From Malacoraja senta (Eukaryota): 64,000 bases of DNA. Made by a program: the position numbers and the translations under genes. Every line of letters starts with the position of its first letter. The first letter of the stretch is position 1. The DNA is taken from assembly GCA_038087875.1 (NCBI GenBank), contig CM075995.1, positions 1,366,001-1,430,000 on the forward strand. Reading direction: 5' to 3'. The notes under the pieces were generated by a model. The model did not search any database. It saw only the letters and a list, made by a program, of their open reading frames with translations, and was not told the DNA's origin. This document shows positions 2,909 to 59,689 of this stretch, in pieces.

Positions 2909-4004
2909 AAGTTCGGATGTCAGAGGTTATGGGGAGAAGGCAGGAGAATGGGGTTAGGAGGGAGGGATAGATCAGCCATGATTGAATAGCAGAGTTGACT
3001 TGATGGGCCGAAGGGCCGAATTCTACTCTTATCACTTATGACATGGCCTTGTGACCTAATGGTTTGAAAGGCTGCCCTCTTAAACAAAGGGTAATTTGTA
3101 AAGTGGATAAATGCTCTAAAGTGATTTCTGCCTTGATAGCAATTAACAAAATGTACTCAGGGATAGAGCTTTGAGATTGTTAGGTTCAGGTATTGATTGG
3201 AGGTCCTATATTGGATGGAGGAGTCTCAGCTGGGAAGCTAACCCGAGAGTATTTACCAATCAAGGTAAACTCATCGGGAGGAATGATAATTTCCAAACTC
3301 ATTAGGGAGTTGAGAGCTTGGCCCGGAATGAGGAAAGAACAATTAGAAGCTAATTGGAACTAATTTAGGCCAACGATGGTGCAATTAATTCTGTGTACAG
3401 TTCTGAGAGCAAATAAGGCCAGTTATGAAGCTGTGGCACTCTGTAAATCTCAGCTCGATGAAGCTTCAAGATGGAAGGTAGGCACAGTAATTCAGCTAGA
3501 AGAGTGGTGCCTCAATAGGTTCGGTGACGAAGAACATAGCACAGGAGCAGGCCCTTCGGCCCACAATGTCTGTGCTGAACATGATGCCAAGTTAGACTAA
3601 TCTCCTCTGCCTGCACGTCATCCATATCCCTCCATTCCTTGCATATCCATGTGCCTATCTAGAAGCCTCTTTAACATAAGCCCTTCCATTATAAGGGCGG
3701 CACGGTGGCACAGCGGTGGAGCGCCAGAGACCCGGATTCGACACTGACTACAGGTGCTGTCTGTATGGAGTTTGTACGCTCTCCCCGAGACCTGCGTGGG
3801 TTTTCTCCGTGTGCTCCGGTTCCTTCCCACACTCCAAAGAGGTGCAGGGTTGTAGGCTGTCTGGCTCGGTAAAATTGTAAATTGTCCCCAGTGTGTGTAG
3901 GATAGTGTTAGTGTGCGGGGATCGCTGGACTCCGTGGGCCGAAGGGCCTGTTTCCGCGCAGGATCTCTGAACTACACTGTCCAATCTCTCCTTACAGCTA
4001 GTAG

Positions 4005-4440
4005 TTGGCCCCCTTCGGTCATGACTGACCATGGGAGATGCATCCTAGTTTGCAGGTGATGTGCGGTCGGATGCAAGCCTGGGCGATGTCATATGGAGGA
4101 CAGGCTGTTGCCCATGCTGCACGTCCCCCCCTCTCCACGTCGCTGATCGATCCAAAGGAACAGCAGGGCCGTTACAGTTTGGCACCAGCGCCGTCGCAGG
4201 AGCGAGGTTGTGGACAACGGCGAACTGCCTTAGGGGCTCCGACTCCGGATTTTCTTGAGGTGTACTCCTGGAGCCTTTTCCATGACTGGATATGGCCACA
4301 AGGCAGTGGAGGTTTTAAATCAGAGTTTTCACTCTCCTAGATGGACCGCCTTCCCAGGCTGACGAGCCCCATCTGCCCGAGACACGTGGGGGCGGGAGCG
4401 TCTACCTTCCCGTGCCGGTCTATAGCACCTGCCCACTGCC
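4005..4440 (-). mobile_element. RTE-related non-autonomous element (5' UTR-like sequence)
   Basis: Minus strand ...CTAGGAGAGTGAAAACTCTGATTTAAAACC resembles the conserved RTE 5' UTR motif as recalled; no RT frame. Confidence 0.5.
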
Positions 4441-4793
4441 TGTAATAAAGCTAATAAATACCCTGTAATACAGGCAGCAGTCTGATAAACCTCTGATAAT
4501 TTATTCAGTTTTGACCTGCCTGTTGGCAGCTCGCAGAGCCTCCCTGTATTAGAGTCACAGAGTGATACAGCACGGAAACAGTCCCTTCAGCCCAACTTGC
4601 CCACACCGACCAAGATGCCCCATCTACACTAGTGCCTCCTTTCCATGTTTGGCCCATATACCTCTGAACCTTTTCCTAACTCTGTGCCTGTCCAAATGTA
4701 TTTTAAATGTTGTGCTCGTAGGTCAGGTCGGGGGGAGTTCCAGGTCCCAGTATCCAGGTCAGGTCGGGGGGAGTTGACCTGACCTGACCATAA

Positions 4794-5569
4794 AGCAGAC
4801 TATTATCTAAATGGTGGCCGACTAGGAAAAGGGGAGATGCAGCGAGACCTGGGTGTCATGGTCCACCAGTCATTATAAGTAGGCATGCAGGTGCAGCAGG
4901 CAGTGAAGAAAGCAAATGGTATGATAGCTTTCATAGCAAAAGGATTTGAGTATAGGAGCAGGGAGGTTCTACTGCAGTTGTACAGGGTCTTGGTGAGACC
5001 ACACCTGGAGTATTGCGTACAGTTTGGTCTCCAAATCTGAGGAAGGACATTATTGCCATAGAGGGGAGTGCAGAGAAGGTTCACCAGACTGATTCCTGGA
5101 TGTCAGGACTGTCTTATGAAGAAAGACTGGATAGACTTGGTTTATACTCTCTAGAATTTAGGAGATTGAGAGGGGATCTTATAGAAACGTACAAAATTCT
5201 TATGGGGTTGGGACAGGCTAGATGCAGGAAGATTGCTCCCGATGTTGGGGAAGTCCAGGACAAGGGGTCACAGCTTAAGGATAAGGGGAAATCCTTTAAA
5301 CCGAGATGAGAATAACTTTTTTCACACAGAGAGTGGTGAATCTCTGGAACTCTCTGCCACAGAGGGTAGTTGAGGCCAGTTCATTGGCTATATTTAAGAG
5401 GGAGTTAGATGTGGCCCTTGTGGCTAAAGGGATCAGAGGGTATGGAGAGAAGGCAGGTACGGGATACTGAGTTGGATGATCAGCCATGATCATATTGAAT
5501 GGCGGTGCAGGCTCGAAGGGCCGAATGGCCTACTCCTGCACCTAATTTCTATGTTTCTATGTTTCTATG
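4794..5569 (+). mobile_element. CR1/HER1-type LINE 3' fragment, frameshifted
   Basis: RDLGV, LVRPHLEYC and RGDLIETYKI motifs; tail (TTTCTATG)n. Confidence 0.9.
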
Positions 5570-7611
5570 AGTTCCCCCCGCCACGGGTACCATGTAATCC
5601 CGTGCTACCTGTTCCATGGTCGGATAGTCGGCGACTAAACCGTCTCCCCCCAACTTGGTTTGCCAGGTGAGGAGGGAGTTGTGGACCCCCAGCAGGAGCA
5701 AAAACAAGAGCTCCTAGCGAGCCAACGGCCAACCACACTTCAGTAGAAGTTGCGGATCACTGCCGTACATAGCATTGTGAGGCACCGTAGCCGGTTGATG
5801 GGTTAATCGGTCGCTGTAAGTTGCCCCCCAGTGTGTAGGTGACTGGTGAAACTTTTTCGACGTTTTTTAGAGATACAGCACAGAAACATGCTTTTCGGCC
5901 CTTATTTATGATTAAGGAGTAAGCCATTTAGAACGGAGACGAGGAAACACTTTTTCTCACAGAGAGTGGTGAGTCTGTGGAATTCTCTGCCACAAAGGGC
6001 GGTGGAGGCAGGTTCTCTGGATGCTTTCAAGAGAGAGCTAGATAGGGCTCTTAAAAATAGCGGAGTCAGGGGATATGGGGAGAAGGCAGGAACGGGGTAC
6101 TGATTGGGGATGATCAGCCATGATCACATTGAATGGCGGTGCTGGCTCGAAGGGCCAAATGACCTGCTCCTGCACCTATTGTCTATTGTCTATTGAGTCC
6201 TCTCCAACCAGCGATCACTCCGTACACTAGCCTGCTGGGGACAATTTTACAACTTACCGAAGCCAATTAACTTACAAACCTGCACGTCTTTGGAGTGTGG
6301 GAAGGGATCGGAGCTTCCCGGAGGGAAAGGCACTCTGGTCATGGGGAGAACGTACAAACTCCATACGGACAGCACCCGAGGCTGGGATCGAACCCGGGTC
6401 TCTCTGGCCCGGTGAGGCAGCGGCTCTACCAGCTGTACCACCATGCCGCCCCTAATCCCAGGGGATGTTGCTGGGAATATGAGGAATCAAATGGGACCGG
6501 TGTAAGATTTGATGGGAAGGGGGCTCGGGTGTCAGGCGAGGCATCCCACAAGGAGCAAGTGGCTCCAATTGATCTCCACGGTCTTGTCCCTGCTGCACGT
6601 CAACCCGTAAGTTGGCGGTTTGCAGCCAGTCATTAATCCCCGCAGATATTCCCCATAATCTTCAAATTCTTAACTCTCATTCTTGTTAGAAATTATCCTT
6701 GCAGTATTCATATCAGGAGGAATATTGGCTGCTCCGTCAGCGAAGTACAAATGATGGCACAGTGGCACAGATGGTACGCCCACTACCTCCAGAGACCCGG
6801 GTTCGATCCCGAGTGCATCTCATCTGTGTGGAGTTTCATAAGGTCTAAAGTGATAGGAGTAGAAATAGGCCATTCGGCCCATCTAGTCTACTCCACCATT
6901 TTTTCTCTATACCTTAGTACACCTAACAATCATAAACCTAAACCTTAACCGAAACACAGCAATATTTACAGCAATATAAAGAGCTAAGTGATAGGAGCAG
7001 AATTAGACCATTCTACCCATCAAATCTACTCTGCCTTTCAATCATGGCTGATCATAGGGGAGTCCAGAACCAGGGGCCACAGTTTAAGAATAAGGAGTAA
7101 GCCATTTAGAACGGAGACGAGGAAACACTTTTTCTCACAGAGAGTGGTGAGTCTGTGGAATTCTCTGCCACAGAGGGTGATGGAGGCAGGTTCTCTGGAT
7201 GCTTTCAAGAGAGAGCTAGATAGGGCTCTTAAAGATAGCGGAGTCAGGGGATATGGGGAGAAGGCAGGAACGGGGTACTGATTGGGGATGATCAGCCGTG
7301 ATCACATTGAATGGTGGTGCTAGCTCGGAGGGCCGAATAGCCTACTCCTGCACCTATTGTCTATTGTCTGCTGTCTATTGTCTATCTCTCCCTCCGAACC
7401 CCATTCTCCTGCCTTCTCCCCATAACTTCCAACACCCGTACTAATCAAGAATCTATCTATCTCTGCCTTAAAAATATCCACTGACTTGGCCTCTACAGCC
7501 TTTCGTGACAAAGAATTCCACAGCTTCACCACCTTCTGACTAATGAAATTCCTCCTCATCTCTTTCCGAAAAGAACGTCCTTTAATTCTGAGGCTATGCA
7601 TATGAGGCATA

Positions 7612-26512: not shown

Positions 26513-26645
26513 CCTTCATGTGGTCCACCCTGTTTCGACTAATGCAATCAACCTGACGTGCACAAACAAATAGATGTCGTTTTTCATGCCACTTGAACTA
26601 GAACTTTAGGCTGTGCACGCCATACGCAAGAAGAAGAAGAAGAAG
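26513..26645 (+). mobile_element. 5'-truncated copy of the HDV-ribozyme short retroposon family
   Basis: CCTTCATGTGGTCCACCCTGTTTCGACTAATGCAATC matches the 3' two-thirds of the ribozyme at 55358-55411; ends ...CCATACGC(AAG)n. Confidence 0.72.
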
Positions 26646-44342: not shown

Positions 44343-44420
44343 TTAAACGCGCGCCTCCTGTATATCGTGTTTTTTTTTCTTTACAAGTGTTGCTTTATCG
44401 GAGTTTTGTGACTTTTGGCC

Positions 44421-44935
44421 ATGGCATCCTCGTGCCGCAAACCCTCGCCCCTGGTCTTTGATGCTGACATAGCTGAACGCTGGGCGACTTTTGAAATGGA
44501 CTTCACTCATTACATCAATATCGTGCATCACAACGATCCCGATATTGTGAAAGCTTCTCTCCTACTGAACCTTGCGGGTCCAGATGCCATGAGGAGAGCG
44601 CGAGCCTTTGCCTATGATCCCGAGGTCCGGGATGGGAACGACCTGATTCAGGTACCTGCGGAGTCTGCAAACGACCCAGTATGTCTATTGCGAAAATTTG
44701 CCAAAATTTGCGACTTGCCCTCTAACCGTATTTTAGAGCGAGCAAAGTTTTTCACGAGAAAGCAACAGCCCGACGAACCTGTTGAATGCTTTATTGCAGA
44801 TCTGCGTTATCTCGCGCAGCGATGCCGCTTTGAAAACATGACCAGCTAACCAGGGACATTTTAGTGACAGGTATGCTGGATCAGAAACTGTGATCCGAGC
44901 TACTGAGGAGGCCGGATCTTACCCTGACAGACGCA
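44421..44935 (+). pseudogene. gag: Gag N-terminal (capsid-like) part of a disrupted gag-pol ORF
   Basis: ATG at 44421; motif ERAKFFTRKQQPDEPVECFIADLRYLAQRCRF. After a frameshift near 44842 the reading continues QLTRDILVTGMLDQKL*SELL in the pol frame, with TGA at 44891. Confidence 0.85.
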
Positions 44936-47900
44936 ATGCATGCATGCAGGTTGGCTGAAATCGTTGACCCGTTGTTCGGACAAAGGGGCACTGATGGCCG
45001 ATCGGTCAATTTAACTGGTCTCAACAGACCACGTCCCAAAATAGATAACGCTAGACCCGCGCCGCGGGCAGGTTATGGCCCCGGAGGACGGGTGGTTAAA
45101 AGGTGCCCTAATTGTAACTATATACATTCAATGCAATCGCAGTGTCCGGCTTATGGTAAATCATGCAATTTCTGCAAGAGATTGAATCACTTCTCGGCGG
45201 TTTGCCGTTCTCGTGGGAACCTGCCACCTGGTCCTAGACAAGTATTAAACAACCTAGCACAAGTTGATAGCGATTTTGGTTCCCAGTCCTCGCTCGACAC
45301 TGCCCACGACTCTGAGGCAATTAGTTCTCAAGGAGATGCTAGTATATTTACACTCCTACATGCACCTGCTCGCCTCCCCGATCCATTGGTCCTCGTTACC
45401 GTCAACAACTGTCCGTTCACAGCTAAACTCGACACGGGGGCGAAAGTCAATGTTATGTCAAGAAACCTGTTCCGAAAGATTAGACACAATGAACCACTGA
45501 CTTCAGACCGTTCGACCTTACGTGCCTATGGGGGCGAGGTACTGAAACCTGTGGGAAAGGCAACTTTTAAATGTGTGCTGCAGAAGTCATCGCGGCCCCT
45601 CGTGTTTTATGTTCTGGATTCTGATTGTGTGACTCTGTTGGGCAACCAGGCGTGCCAAGACCTGGGACTAGTGTCTTTCGATCGTACTGTCCACGAAATA
45701 CGTTTGCCAATGGATCCGTTATCCGAGTACCCGGACCTGTTTGATGATGAACTGGGCAAACTGCCCCTTGTCTACAAGATTGTCACCGACCCCAAAGTGG
45801 TGCCAGTGGTCTGTGCACCACACAGAGTATCCCTCGCTTTAAAGGATAGAGTGGAAGCGATGCTGAAGAGCATGGTTACAATGGGGGTGCTGGAAGCAGT
45901 GAGCGAGCCCACCGAGTGGGTCTCCACCATGGTTGCTACCCTGAAAAAGGACAAAAACGAGATACGGGTGTGTATCAACCCCAAAGACCTGAACCTCGCG
46001 ATCAGGCGGCCACACTACCCCATGAGAACCGTAGAGGACGTCGCAGCTCAGGTCGGCCAGGCTACGGTGTTTTCTGTCCTTGATGCAAAAAGCTCTTTCT
46101 GGCAAATACCACTCGATAAGCGCTCCTCCGACCTGACAACTTTTTCCACTCCTTATGGCAGATTTAAGTTTCTACGGATGCCATTCGGTATCAACTCTGC
46201 CAGTGAAGTGTTTCAGCGATCCATGGAACAGCTGTTCGCTGACATGCCTTGCGCCATCATCGTTGACGACATCCTAGTTTATGGGGAGAATGCCGCCGAA
46301 CACGATAAGAACCTCCGCAGAGTCCTGGACCGTGCCCGGCAGATCAACTTAAAACTGAACAAGAATAAATGCCGGTTCCGTGTCTCAGAGGTGCCGTACG
46401 TCGGGCACATCTTCACTTCCAATGGACTGAAACCTGACCCGCAAAAGACTATCGCTATATCCGAAATGCCAGCCCCAACTGACGTGCTTGGTCTACAACG
46501 ATTCCTGGGCATGGTCAACTACCTCGGGAAGTTTGTACCGAATCTCAGTGAGCTGAGCTCATCCCTGAGACAACTAACTAAGAAAGGCACCGCCTGGTCC
46601 TGGTTTCCACAACACCAGCAGGCTTTCGAATGTCTGAAGTCTAAGCTGATCAGCACCCCAACACTCAAATTCTTCGACCTGCGCCGTCCCATTGTTGTGA
46701 CCTGTGATGCCTCTCGTTTCGGACTGGGTGCTGCTTGCCTGCAGCTCTACGGCGACGGCTCCCTGCTACCGGTCTCGTATGCCTCTCGGACCATGACCGA
46801 CACGGAGCAACGATATGCTCAGATCGAGAAGGAGCTCCTGGCTGTGGTGTTTGCTTGTTCCAAATTCAAAGACTTTCTCTTTGGCTGTAGATTCACAGTC
46901 GAGACCGACCACCAGCCACTGGTAACCATTCTTAACAAACCCATACATGTTGCCCCTGCCAGATTACAATGTATGATGCTGCAGCTCCAGCGTTGTGATT
47001 TTGATATCACATACAAGAAGGGAACGGAGATGCATGTTGCTGACACACTTTCTCGTGCCCCACGGGCATCCTGTGACCGCCACCCTTACGAGCAGGAAAA
47101 CCTACTCGTACTTAATGTCACCTTTGTTCCAACCAAGCAGCTACAGAGCCTGATCGAGCACACCGCCGCGGACCCCGCACTGCAGCAGCTGGCTGCCATC
47201 ATCAGGCGTGGGTGGCCAGTCAAACGTACCAATTTACCATCGGGCGCACAACCGTTCTTCCTGGTCCGCGACGAGCTCGTGATCCAGGATGGGGTTATCG
47301 TCAAAGGCCACAAAGTTGTGGTCCCAGCCTCTCTCTACGATCTATACTACAATGCAGCCCACAGTGGTCATCCTGGAGTCGAGGCCACTGTTTCTCATGC
47401 CCAAGGACAGTTCTACTGGCCTGGCATGGCCAACTACATCAGGAACCGGGTGTCCTCCTGTGCCTCCTGCAACAACCATACCCCACACCAGCAGCGTCAA
47501 CCCCTTCTGCAGCAGCCGGCGCCTGCCATGCCTTGGTCATCGCTGGCTGCTGACATATTCGAATGGCGGGGTAAGCACTTTCTCGTGCTGGTGGACTCTT
47601 TCTCCAATTGGTTCGAGATTGACCTCCTTCCGTCCACCACCTCCGGGAGGGTCATCGCTAAGATGCGTCAGCACTTCGCCGCCCACGGCGTCCCTGTCCG
47701 CTTACAGACCGACAATGGACCGCAATTCACAAGTGCCGAGTTCAAAGCTTTCGCTGCAAGGTGGAACTTCCATCACTACACCAGCAGCCCGGAGTACCCT
47801 CAGAGAAACGGCCTGGCCGAACGGGCCGTGCGGAGTGCTAAGGGCCTGATGGAGCAGTCCCGCCTGTCAGACAGCGATTTTTACCTGGACTTACTTAACC

Positions 47901-48553
47901 TACGTAACGTTTCACGGGACCCGCTTATGGGCTCCCCTGCCCAACGTCTGATGTCCAGAGTGACAAGACCACCTATGCCAATCGCCCAGCAGTCCCTGCT
48001 ACCCAAAGTGTTCGATCCTGCCACTGTCCAACAGCGGATCGATCATAAACATGAAGTTCAACGGCGTTCCCACGACAGGTCCTGCCGCCCTCTGCTGCCT
48101 CTGCTACCCGGGCAGGTCGTTCGGATGCGGGCCACCACCGGCTATTCCCGCCTCGCGACGGTAACTGCCGTGGACGACTCTCCAAGATCTTACCTGGTGG
48201 ATTACGAAGGGACTACCTACCGACACAGCCGTCAGCACCTGTTGGCCGTGAACGAGCCAAAGCCTCCTCCTGCGGCTCCTTATGCTCCTCCGTTGTCGTT
48301 TCCACCTGCTGCCGCTGATCACCCTGCTGCCCCATTCCCCTCGCTTAGTGCGGTCTCCTGTTTTTCGTTGCCTCCTGGTCTTGGCCGGTCGCTTTCACCT
48401 CCTGCACGTCCTGCACGTCCTCCCCCTCCTATCTCTCCCGCTCCTGCTGCATCTCCCCCTCCCTTGACTTTCCTGCCTGCCTCCGTTACGGCTTCTCTTC
48501 CTTCTGAGGGGGGGGGAAGGTGCTGTACGTACGCGTTCGGGTCGCATTGTTAA
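44936..48553 (+). CDS. pol: Gypsy Gag C-terminus plus Pol: zinc knuckles, aspartic protease, RT, RNase H, integrase
   Basis: CNFCKRLNHFSAVC (CCHC knuckle); LDTGA protease; RMPFGI and IIVDDILVY RT motifs; CDASRFGLGA, EKELLA and TDHQPL RNase H motifs; HSGH...CASC and D-D-E (ADIF, TDNGPQF, AERAV) integrase motifs. Confidence 0.95.
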   Translation: MHACRLAEIVDPLFGQRGTDGRSVNLTGLNRPRPKIDNARPAPRAGYGPGGRVVKRCPNCNYIHSMQSQCPAYGKSCNFCKRLNHFSAVCRSRGNLPPGPRQVLNNLAQVDSDFGSQSSLDTAHDSEAISSQGDASIFTLLHAPARLPDPLVLVTVNNCPFTAKLDTGAKVNVMSRNLFRKIRHNEPLTSDRSTLRAYGGEVLKPVGKATFKCVLQKSSRPLVFYVLDSDCVTLLGNQACQDLGLVSFDRTVHEIRLPMDPLSEYPDLFDDELGKLPLVYKIVTDPKVVPVVCAPHRVSLALKDRVEAMLKSMVTMGVLEAVSEPTEWVSTMVATLKKDKNEIRVCINPKDLNLAIRRPHYPMRTVEDVAAQVGQATVFSVLDAKSSFWQIPLDKRSSDLTTFSTPYGRFKFLRMPFGINSASEVFQRSMEQLFADMPCAIIVDDILVYGENAAEHDKNLRRVLDRARQINLKLNKNKCRFRVSEVPYVGHIFTSNGLKPDPQKTIAISEMPAPTDVLGLQRFLGMVNYLGKFVPNLSELSSSLRQLTKKGTAWSWFPQHQQAFECLKSKLISTPTLKFFDLRRPIVVTCDASRFGLGAACLQLYGDGSLLPVSYASRTMTDTEQRYAQIEKELLAVVFACSKFKDFLFGCRFTVETDHQPLVTILNKPIHVAPARLQCMMLQLQRCDFDITYKKGTEMHVADTLSRAPRASCDRHPYEQENLLVLNVTFVPTKQLQSLIEHTAADPALQQLAAIIRRGWPVKRTNLPSGAQPFFLVRDELVIQDGVIVKGHKVVVPASLYDLYYNAAHSGHPGVEATVSHAQGQFYWPGMANYIRNRVSSCASCNNHTPHQQRQPLLQQPAPAMPWSSLAADIFEWRGKHFLVLVDSFSNWFEIDLLPSTTSGRVIAKMRQHFAAHGVPVRLQTDNGPQFTSAEFKAFAARWNFHHYTSSPEYPQRNGLAERAVRSAKGLMEQSRLSDSDFYLDLLNLRNVSRDPLMGSPAQRLMSRVTRPPMPIAQQSLLPKVFDPATVQQRIDHKHEVQRRSHDRSCRPLLPLLPGQVVRMRATTGYSRLATVTAVDDSPRSYLVDYEGTTYRHSRQHLLAVNEPKPPPAAPYAPPLSFPPAAADHPAAPFPSLSAVSCFSLPPGLGRSLSPPARPARPPPPISPAPAASPPPLTFLPASVTASLPSEGGGRCCTYAFGSHC

Positions 48554-55411: not shown

Positions 55412-55812
55412 ACCTTGGACCTAATTGAAACTTACCGAATAGTGAAAGGCCTGGATAGGGTGGATGTGGAGAGGATGTTTTCACTGTTGGGAGAGTCTAG
55501 GACTAGAGGTCGTAGCCTCAGAATTAAAGGATGTATCTTTAGGAAGATGAGGAGGAATTTCTTTAGTCAGAGGGAGGTGAAACTGTGGAATTCTTTGCCA
55601 CAGAAGGCTGTGGTTGCCTTCAATGGATATTTTTAAGGGTGAGATAGATTTTTGATTAGTATGGGTGTCAGGTTCACATGGGGAGATGGCAGGAGAATGG
55701 TAAGATAGGTAAGATAGATCAACAATGAAATAATGGCTTAATCCTGCTCCGATAATTTATTGAATCTATGAACATTGTGCTGGAATGTTCATAAACTTCT
55801 AACAACCCCCCC

Positions 55813-56362
<550 letters not shown>

Positions 56363-56534
56363 CTGGACTCACACAATTTGCAACTATTCAATCTTTCTCT
56401 ATCCAACCATCAGCCTATCAACACCTCCCCCCTCCCCACCCATACCTCCCCAATCTATTCCTCTCATGATTGTATACACCTCTATAAGATCACCCCTCAT
56501 CCTCCTGTGCTCTAAGGAATAGAGTACTAGCAAG

Positions 56535-58222: not shown

Positions 58223-58408
58223 CATAGACACAAAATGCTGGAGTAACTCAGCGGGACAGGCAGCATCTCTGGAGAGAAGGAATGGGAGACGTTTCGGGTC
58301 GAGATCCTTCTTCAGACTTTCTCCAGAGATGCTGACTGCCCCGCTGAGTTACTCCAGCATTTTGTGTCTAAATTCGATTTAAACCAGCAACTGCAGTCCT
58401 TCCCTACA
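58223..58408. mobile_element. Inverted pair of Penelope tails with 10-bp flanking duplication
   Basis: CAGAATCATG at 58213-58222 and 58409-58418 flanks the palindromic unit. Confidence 0.75.
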
Positions 58409-58990
58409 CAGAATCATGTGCTTGGTTTCAACTGCTCTTCCTTGTAAACGAGTTATTAAAGATCAATCCAAGTAGGAAAGTGCAAAACACAGTAAAAGCC
58501 AAAAGTTAAAAGAGCCACAAGGTTGACAGGAATGGTTGAATTTTGTGAGCTTAAGCAAGGGGCAATTTTCACCAACCTACACAATCACATTATAGTGATT
58601 TATCTGTTAAAGTGGAAATTAATAGTTGACCTGCTGTAGAATCGGAGCCAAGTCCAGGTCATGTCTCAACTAGTCAAACAATTGCTTCCCTCCTCAAGTT
58701 CAATGACAAAGTGAACACTTGGCTGCTCTCCATGTGGTATTTCAACACTGAAAGCCAATCCAGGACAAAGCAAAACACCGGCTTATTCTCAGCTCAATCT
58801 TATTGAGCAACCAAAGAGCACGGTGGCGCAGCGGTAGAGTTGCTGCCTTGCAGCGCCGGAGACCCGGGTTCCATCCCGACTACGGGTGCTGTCTGCGCGG
58901 AGTTTGTACGCTCTCCCCGTGACCTGCGTGGGTTTACACCGAGATCCTCGGTTTCCTCCCGCATTTCAAAGACGTACATGTTTGTAGGTT

Positions 58991-59209
58991 CTTCTTCTTG
59001 CGTTTGAGGCAGCAGAAGCCTGCAGCAGGGTGATGCCATCCGGTTCGACGTCCGTAAGTGCCCGCCCTAAAAAGGGCGCATGATCCGGGTTGGCGCCGAG
59101 CTGCGGCGACTGAGGTTGCATTTCTGCTGCTGTCTCTGTTTGTTGTCGTTCCCCTGACCGAAGTCAGTTGACAGGGCTCACCACGGGGGAGGTCGACAAC
59201 ATGAGCCTC
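58991..59209 (-). mobile_element. Short non-autonomous Ingi/Vingi-like retroposon with 5' HDV-like ribozyme fold and (AAG)n tail, inserted in a V-SINE
   Basis: 10-bp TSD TTTGTAGGTT (58981-58990, 59210-59219); 3' end ...AAACGCAAGAAGAAG; short reading frame MQPQSPQLGANPDHAPFLGRALTDVEPDGITLL from ATG at 59121. Confidence 0.8.
59141..59209 (-). ncRNA. HDV-like ribozyme fold, probably inactive in this copy
   Basis: P1 GAGGCUC/GAGCCCU (G·U at +1, one A-C mismatch); P2 UGUUGUCG/CGACAACA; P3 ACC/GGU; L3 UCCCCCGU; P4 CUGAC-UUCG-GUCAG; J4/2 reads GGGAA, so the catalytic C is absent. Confidence 0.75.
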
Positions 59210-59689
59210 TTTGTAGGTTAATTGGCTTTGGTATCAATGTTAAAAAAAAAAAAAATCCCTAGAGGGTGAAGGATGGTGCTAATATGTGGGGATCGTTGGT
59301 CGGCGTGGACCCGGTGGGCCAAAGGGCCTGATTCCGCTCTGTATCTCTAAACTAAGCTAAACTAAACTAAATATGTTGTGCGGTTTCTGAGTTGTGTATT
59401 CTATCTGTCATCAGTGAGATCTGTTAATGACAGCCATACTTAACACTGAAGGGTCTCGACCCGAAACATCAACTCTTCCTTTTCTCCAGAGATGTTGCCT
59501 GTCCCGCTGTGTTCCTCCAGCTTCCAGAGTCTATATATTTGGTTTTAACCAGTTCTGCAGTTCCTTCCTACACTTAAGAACCACTATTAGATTAGCTTGT
59601 TACAATCGAGCTGGTATAAGATTGATGGACATTAATCGCAGAATTACACGGTACCTCATGGCTCCACTGACCCGGGTTTAAGGTTCAAT

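What the first reader, a model, noticed from the sequence alone, without database searches (positions are those of the whole stretch)
58981..59219. Second, different 219-bp retroposon with a 5' HDV-like fold, apparently an internally deleted Vingi/Ingi LINE
Seen: a 10-bp TSD defines the ends exactly, and the first base is G+1 of an HDV-like fold (P2 8/8 bp, P3 ACC/GGU, L3 UCCCCCGU, P4 with cUUCGg). Its stems differ entirely from those of the 55358 ribozyme, yet the topology and P3/L3 signature are the same. J4/2 reads GGGAA instead of GCGAA and P1 has one mismatch, so this copy is probably dead. An ATG frame follows (MQPQ...APFLGRALT-DVEPDGITLL) and runs into an ACGC(AAG)n tail. Inference: 5' UTR plus ORF start fused to the 3' end of an autonomous element, giving a second independent ribozyme-headed non-autonomous family.
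Basis: partly seen in the sequence, partly recalled or inferred. Interest (0 to 1): 0.72.

Follow-up and report, generated by a model that had tools for sequence, protein, structure and literature searches.

The report
Ribozyme-headed cut-down Vingi retroposon copy
This 219-base insert is one copy of a high-copy jumping element built from the two ends of a Vingi-type retrotransposon; most relatives keep an intact head predicted to cut the RNA free, while this copy has lost the key catalytic base and is likely dead, which makes it a new member of a known kind of element.

Summary
Observation confirmed. A 219-bp minus-strand insert (58991-59209) with a perfect 10-bp TSD interrupts a SINE and starts at G1 of an HDV-like fold. 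The UUCG loop and 8-nt L3 are not family traits. The 34-codon frame is the true start of a ~1010-aa APE+RT ORF without RNase H, cut inside the first endonuclease motif and joined to a ~29-bp 3' end. A full-length relative (L050) shares ribozyme, ORF start and the ACGC(AAG)n end type. The host's own full-length parent was not recovered; cleavage is untested. Verdict: new member of a known kind (NARTc, RIME, R2 SIDEs, Vingi-1_EE derivatives). The scan already holds 89 notes on Vingi-type ribozyme-headed elements in other genomes, those shown mostly the ~140-bp sister family; this 219-bp family was not found there.

The parts
58981..58990 (.). Target-site duplication, copy at the element's 3' side
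   Evidence: empty site in 18 of 21 other SINE matches
59210..59219 (.). Target-site duplication, copy at the element's 5' side
58991..59209 (-). Whole non-autonomous element, 219 bp; differs from the family majority of other runs at 9 single bases and one extra base
   Evidence: tables 3, 4, 7
59141..59209 (-). HDV-like ribozyme fold: P1 59209-59203/59179-59173, P2 59201-59194/59148-59141, P3 59193-59191/59182-59180, L3 59190-59183, P4 59167-59154, J4/2 59153-59149
   Evidence: sequence; descriptor versus shuffles; pair counts on 7 natural heads
59152..59152 (-). Position of the catalytic C (HDV C75 equivalent); G in this copy, C in the family majority and in 6 of 6 other heads aligned
59122..59140 (-). 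Short remaining 5' UTR linker; variable in the family
   Evidence: tables 5c, 7, 8
59020..59121 (-). First 34 codons of the parent's APE-RT ORF (Met1 to the Gln of endonuclease motif I); many family contigs lack 59109-59123 including the ATG
   Evidence: table 7
59019..59020 (-). Internal-deletion junction shared by the family; longer forms continue into the endonuclease motif here
   Evidence: loose ends before 59020; same junction in P0001
58991..59019 (-). Parent's 3' end: likely last base of the stop codon, 19-nt 3' UTR ending ACGC, then (AAG)3
   Evidence: table 5c; same end type in L050
58811..59360 (+). Older tRNA-head-type SINE that was the insertion target (approximate ends); not part of the element
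   Evidence: dozens of window matches, 72-87% identity for the long ones; resemblance to HE1 of sharks and rays is recalled, not tested; ARAGORN finds no tRNA gene

Best explanation
The insert is a mutated copy of a high-copy element made of the first ~190 and last ~29 bases of a Vingi-type LINE, whose intact relatives likely cut their RNA out of host transcripts with the HDV-like head and are likely re-inserted by the parent LINE's protein. Steps: (1) shown: ends, TSD, family copy number in the hundreds of distinct contigs per run, shared deletion junction, homology of head and ORF start to full-length APE-RT elements. (2) inferred from R2 and L1Tc: the element is transcribed from a host or internal promoter and the double-pseudoknot cleaves 5' of G1, giving the exact 5' end at which family copies begin. 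(3) inferred: the parent's APE-RT protein binds the short 3' end, nicks DNA and reverse-transcribes from the (AAG)n tail, leaving a ~10-bp TSD. (4) inferred: the 34-codon frame is a passenger, since many family contigs lack its ATG. (5) inferred: this copy lost the catalytic C (C to G) and a P1 pair, most likely after insertion, and is predicted not to cleave.
For: TSD and empty site. Family: 21 of 24 listed runs, 12 studies, 9 coded organisms hold part of it; 1161-1481 contigs laid per run with unrelated flanks at both ends, agreement 0.36-0.43; 570-841 contigs per run over the junction region, several spanning it whole; summed depth over single-contig depth about 3,300-7,500 (the tool warns this is no copy number). 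Majority restores C at 59152, GGGG start, 7-nt L3. Loose ends before 59020 in 4-11 contigs in 4 of the 6 runs laid begin with the same 17 bases, read by eye as LNAEGL, the continuation of the motif seen in P0133. ORF start matches P0132/P0133/P0134 at 50-58% from Met1 to Gln34, E 1e-6 to 3e-5 among 177 proteins; these are 1008-1015 aa with endonuclease and RT domains and no RNase H hit. One X1 contig keeps the ORF end, read by eye as LQRLEGVT-stop directly before the 19-nt UTR, matching the relatives' last residues such as WLQNLRDVA-stop. L050: ribozyme at base 1, same P1, P3, base of P4 and J4/2 as the family majority, 10-bp flanking repeat, ACGC(AAG)n end. Covariation over 7 heads: 91.7% paired, 16 of 23 pairs with two-sided changes, 0 of 500 shuffles, slid controls 37-53%.
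Against: No genome is held, so the host's full-length parent was not recovered; a search with the 43-aa start found no longer protein (32 candidates, 0 hits) and the full-library search found only another short copy and one bacterial-looking chance hit. L050's 3' UTR shares only the ACGC(AAG)n end, not the 19-nt sequence. No named Vingi reference was in the tree. Family statistics come from other runs, holding at most 56% of the words, so they may be other species. No cleavage or RNA data. The alignment for one search is small and the structure was written from this copy.
Confidence: 0.88

Rival explanations
1. Same bipartite element, but the head matters mainly as an internal promoter or protective/protein-binding structure (as Pr77 of L1Tc doubles as a promoter), and cleavage is dispensable; dead heads could then still propagate.
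For: Pr77 is both promoter and ribozyme (PMC3383444, abstract in search listing). C-to-U at the catalytic site reaches 19% and 32% of depth in two of four runs, which a spreading dead-head subfamily would give.
Against: Catalytic C is the majority in 4 of 4 runs and in 6 of 6 other heads; the site is a CpG, so decay after insertion explains U; family 5' ends cluster at G1 (table 7).
Confidence: 0.15
2. The parent belongs to Ingi proper (with RNase H) or to another ribozyme-bearing clade such as RTE, not Vingi.
For: The actual parent was not seen; Kojima 2018 lists Ingi and RTE, not Vingi, among clades with known 5' ribozymes (PMC5786205 passage). The lineage is deeply separated from the window's other Vingi-like fragment.
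Against: Closest full-length relatives are single ~1010-aa ORFs without an RNase H hit (4 of 4 scanned); L050 spans about 3.15 kb from G1 to tail; both lineages were gathered by one profile.
Confidence: 0.07
3. A one-off internal deletion (template jump during a single integration) rather than a propagating family.
For: Only one copy in the 64-kb window.
Against: Hundreds of contigs per run cross the junction without a break; P0001 has the same junction.
Confidence: 0.01
4. The frame encodes a functional micropeptide that the element needs.
For: Authentic ATG retained, frame open into the tail.
Against: Many family contigs lack 59109-59123 with the ATG (loose ends in 7-28 contigs per row, gaps of 12-17 in table 8); no stop inside the element; no Pfam or Atlas support.
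Confidence: 0.02

Closest known systems
Internally deleted non-autonomous derivatives of Vingi-1_EE (hedgehog; Kojima, Kapitonov, Jurka 2011, known here only through passages of PMC5786205; the 2011 paper was not held)
   Same: 5' and 3' ends of a Vingi-type LINE joined by internal deletion; several breakpoints from one parent.
   Different: Different host and sequence family; a ribozyme head is not stated for Vingi in the passages read; retains 34 codons of the ORF.
NARTc (from L1Tc) and RIME (from ingi), trypanosomes (PMC3185411 and PMC4035085, passages and abstract)
   Same: Short internally deleted element that keeps an HDV-like ribozyme at base 1; NARTc cleaves at +1 in vitro.
   Different: Parent clade Ingi, protist host, Pr77 promoter hallmark; here a vertebrate-type repeat landscape, RNase H-less parent lineage, (AAG)n tail, no assay.
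R2 SIDEs of Drosophila (PMC3414825, abstract)
   Same: 5' HDV-like ribozyme plus 3' end of the parent, mobilised in trans by TPRT.
   Different: R2 is site-specific in 28S rDNA with a restriction-like endonuclease; this family is dispersed (unrelated flanks) and APE-type.
Vingi-2_Gav 5' end / SINE2-1_AMi (PMC5786205 supplement passage)
   Same: Vingi 5' end that reads, by eye, as an HDV-type fold with the same compact layout and a GCGAA junction.
   Different: Different stems; that head resembles L017 and belongs, by inference, to the other lineage.

Membership tests
HDV-like ribozyme | Nested double-pseudoknot P1/P2/P3/P4 with G1-U or G1-C first pair | tested here: met
HDV-like ribozyme | Catalytic C in J4/2 (this copy) | tested here: not met
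   G at 59152; PMC4227795 passage: changing C75 to any base, especially U or G, inhibits cleavage
HDV-like ribozyme | Catalytic C in J4/2 (family majority) | tested here: met
   65.5-91.8% of depth in 4 of 4 runs
HDV-like ribozyme | L3 with U...G active-site pair and C available for P1.1 with G after P1 | tested here: met
   sequence; 7-nt L3 is the majority, 58-74% of depth; only one G-C pair is possible for P1.1
HDV-like ribozyme | Mg2+-dependent self-cleavage 5' of G1 | not testable with these tools
   needs an in vitro assay
HDV-like ribozyme | Match to a curated Rfam HDV model at gathering score | tested here: not met
   0 hits; 19.3 bits against 44; the intact 55411 head is missed too, so this test is insensitive
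Bipartite non-autonomous LINE (SIDE) | 5' part equals the 5' end of an autonomous LINE | tested here: met
   (sister-lineage elements)
Bipartite non-autonomous LINE (SIDE) | 3' part equals the 3' end of the same autonomous LINE | tested here: inconclusive
   ORF-end remnant plus stop directly before the UTR in one X1 contig; ACGC(AAG)n end type in L050; full-length host parent not seen
Bipartite non-autonomous LINE (SIDE) | Propagates as a unit: many copies, same junction, TSDs, dispersed flanks | tested here: met
   TSD checked for this copy only
Bipartite non-autonomous LINE (SIDE) | No tRNA/5S/7SL head and no coding capacity for RT | tested here: met
Vingi clade (parent) | Single ORF with APE endonuclease and RT | tested here: met
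   P0132-P0137; definition from PMC13708176 passage
Vingi clade (parent) | No RNase H (unlike Ingi) | tested here: met
   0 RNase H hits at E<=0.1 in 4 of 4 full-length relatives and 6 of 6 L050 frame pieces
Vingi clade (parent) | RT phylogeny with named Vingi references | not testable with these tools
   tree of 32 unnamed rows only, quick method
Canonical Pol III SINE | tRNA-, 5S- or 7SL-derived head with A/B boxes | tested here: not met
   head is the LINE 5' end; no tRNA

The most novel reading that the evidence does not exclude
These genomes carry thousands of self-cutting sites from at least two Vingi-derived families, and because this family's catalytic C lies in a CpG, methylation decay plus host selection preferentially kill that one base, above all in copies lying in sense within introns. 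The catalytic site is the most C-to-U-changed of 13 CpG-type rows in 3 of 4 runs (19, 32, 13% against at most 13, 10, 11%; in X1 it is 8% against 22%). If real, the family would give a genome-wide, single-base readout of selection against ribozyme activity in vertebrate pre-mRNAs.
Probability: 0.15. Interest if true: 0.62.

Novelty: new member of a known kind. Interest (0 to 1): 0.3.

Why it matters
It adds a vertebrate, dispersed, high-copy case to the short list of ribozyme-headed internally deleted LINEs and supports Vingi-type elements as a ribozyme-bearing clade, which the passage read in Kojima 2018 does not list. Several breakpoints from one parent bracket the minimal cis signals (about 70-nt head and 29-nt tail), useful because Vingi proteins are being developed as RNA-only gene-insertion tools (PMC13708176, passages). 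This particular copy is likely dead and has no sign of a host function.

Tried and rejected
No host genome held. Rfam at gathering score: 0 hits. Other copies in the window: none. No RNA holder listed (no evidence either way). Longer proteins with the 43-aa start: 0 of 32 candidates. Full-library protein search: P0001 (another short copy) and P0002 family (476-aa bacterial-type repeat protein, rejected as chance). ESM Atlas: best 0.80, below its meaningful range. 25-nt tail pattern in metagenome contigs: 0. The window's Vingi-like 3' fragment at 54208-53460 was rejected as the parent: different 3' UTR and other side of a 100-support branch. No loose end showing a LINE 3' body upstream of the tail appeared among the 24 rows shown (113 rows hidden; match only 30 bases), so autonomous 3' ends were neither shown nor excluded. 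HDV descriptor upstream of the ORF: hits in 6 of 22 loci with an N-terminal match (4 distinct elements; several of the rest have little upstream sequence or are decayed); the other 58 of 80 loci were not scanned this way. The careful tree did not finish; the quick tree was used. Literature: Vingi+ribozyme 6 papers, none describing this (listing; two read by passages); Vingi+shark nothing relevant among 20 of 32 listed; Vingi+CPEB3 0; HDV-like ribozymes+shark+SINE 0; Kojima 2011 and Ruminski 2011 not held. Repbase and Dfam could not be searched, so the family may already have a database name.

Full report
Observation. The insert lies on the minus strand at 59209-58991, between two exact copies of TTTGTAGGTT. 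It interrupts an abundant SINE: of 21 other places in the window that match the 25 bases to its left, 18 continue directly with the sequence found to its right, so the ends and the TSD are certain. A relaxed descriptor finds this fold and the one at 55411-55359 and nothing else in the window; 100 shuffles give a mean of 0.03. Energy folding (z -1.19) and Rfam do not support it on their own, but they also miss the intact 55411 head. The surrounding repeats look like those of a shark or ray; that is recalled, not tested.

Family. No genome is held, so copies came from public runs. 21 of 24 listed runs, from 12 studies and 9 coded organisms, hold part of the element, at most 56% of its words. Four runs laid on the whole element gave 1161-1481 contigs each, with unrelated flanks beyond both ends; four runs (two of them new) laid on the 3' 80 bases gave 570-841 each, several spanning it whole. 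Summed depth is about 3,300-7,500 times single-contig depth, suggesting thousands of copies, though the tool warns this is not a copy number. The P4 loop is CUCA in 97-99%, so the UUCG loop belongs to this copy or a small subfamily. Changing C75 to G or U inhibits the HDV ribozyme (PMC4227795, passage), so this copy is likely dead. P0001, a 56-aa product from an unrelated contig, shows the same ORF-to-tail junction.

Parent. Loose ends before 59020 (4 and 10 contigs; 11, 11 and 10; not among the rows shown for X1 and X2) start with the same 17 bases, read by eye as LNAEGL, then diverge. A Vingi-like fragment elsewhere in the window led to ~990-aa APE+RT proteins and 80 loci. One of these, L050, begins at its first base with an HDV-like fold sharing P1, P3, the base of P4 and J4/2 with our family majority, continues into an ORF whose start matches ours, and ends stop, 16 nt, ACGC(AAG)n, with a 10-base flanking repeat. 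The DNA match covers 3-190 of the element at 62%, E 8e-12; ribozyme and ORF parts each beat 500 of 500 shuffles. L050 in turn retrieved intact 1008-1015-aa ORFs that match our frame from Met1 to Gln34 at 50-58%, carry endonuclease and RT domains and give no RNase H hit, the stated mark of Vingi against Ingi (PMC13708176, passage). So the ATG is the real start and the deletion cuts the first endonuclease motif. A rarer form, one contig in each of 4 runs, joins 59120 to 59018; in X1 the 34 letters between read by eye as LQRLEGVT-stop, like the relatives' last residues, which places the 3' piece as the parent's 19-nt UTR and tail. Many contigs lack 59109-59123 including the ATG, so the peptide is not needed. 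These variants indicate several deletions from one parent (inference). The quick tree puts these relatives on a branch with support 99-100, apart from the window's own Vingi-like fragment (32 rows, four of them short, no named references), which is therefore not the parent. Across 7 natural heads 91.7% of cells pair and 16 of 23 pairs change on both sides (small alignment, structure taken from this copy). The host's full-length parent was not recovered.

Mechanism. By analogy with R2 and L1Tc (PMC6765202, PMC3185411, passages; PMC3414825, abstract), an intact copy is co-transcribed or self-transcribed, cleaves 5' of G1, and is reverse-transcribed at a nick by the parent's protein bound to its 3' end. 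Structure, family and parent lineage are shown; cleavage and mobilisation in trans are inferred.

Comparison. It works like NARTc/RIME and R2 SIDEs, and is filed with the internally deleted Vingi derivatives; Kojima 2018 names RTE, Ingi, Vingi and R2 as the only clades known to yield such elements and does not list Vingi among ribozyme-bearing clades (PMC5786205, passages, section 7 and one supplement search). It is independent of the 55411 element: no alignment between them beyond the AAG tail, shared P3 and layout only. Searches listed no description of this family; Repbase, Dfam, Kojima 2011 and Ruminski 2011 could not be seen. Earlier notes of this scan report the ~140-bp sister type many times (89 findings hold the words, 8 shown) but not this sequence.

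Open lead. The catalytic C sits in a CpG and is the most changed of 13 CpG-type rows in 3 of 4 runs, but not in X1. These are depth shares of contigs, and only rows reaching 5% in some run were listed, so this is a lead only.

Verdict. Real, well explained, new member of a known kind; interest 0.3.

Noticed in passing
window 55411-55300, minus strand: Sister element with an intact minimal HDV-like head (J4/2 ACGAA, almost no P4) and an (AAG)n tail; head matches L026 (79% over 38 bases).
   Followed up: partly
window 26513-26645, plus strand: 5'-damaged copy of the same sister family ending CATACGC(AAG)6, inserted in a SINE.
   Followed up: partly
window 54208-53460, minus strand: 5'-truncated Vingi-like LINE, 237-aa open C-terminal frame, 79% to P0010/P0011, whose clusters include members named from a teleost (Aldrovandia affinis); such high identity may hint at horizontal transfer if the host is a cartilaginous fish. 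Ends GACACG then (AAG)n.
   Followed up: partly
L017:3799-3869 (also L018, L020): Full-length Vingi-like element of the other lineage starts with a head very like the Vingi-2_Gav 5' end in the supplement of PMC5786205; the likeness of both to the mammalian CPEB3 ribozyme is recalled, not tested here; no paper holds Vingi and CPEB3; earlier scan notes make the same link.
   Followed up: partly
window 44412-48553, plus strand: Long open frame of 1219 aa plus an upstream 145-aa frame, looking by eye like gag-pol of a Ty3/Gypsy LTR retrotransposon.
   Followed up: no
window 58225-58382: Long inverted-repeat hairpin of about 110-150 bases giving sub-threshold Rfam hits; likely a MITE-like repeat common in the window.
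   Followed up: no
window 55800-56470: About 650 bases of CA-rich microsatellite.
   Followed up: no
window 59159-59162: Two loop changes turn the family's CUCA into a C(UUCG)G tetraloop in this copy; the window's letter has at most 1-3% of depth at each site in other runs. Chance or a host-specific subfamily; unexplained.
   Followed up: partly
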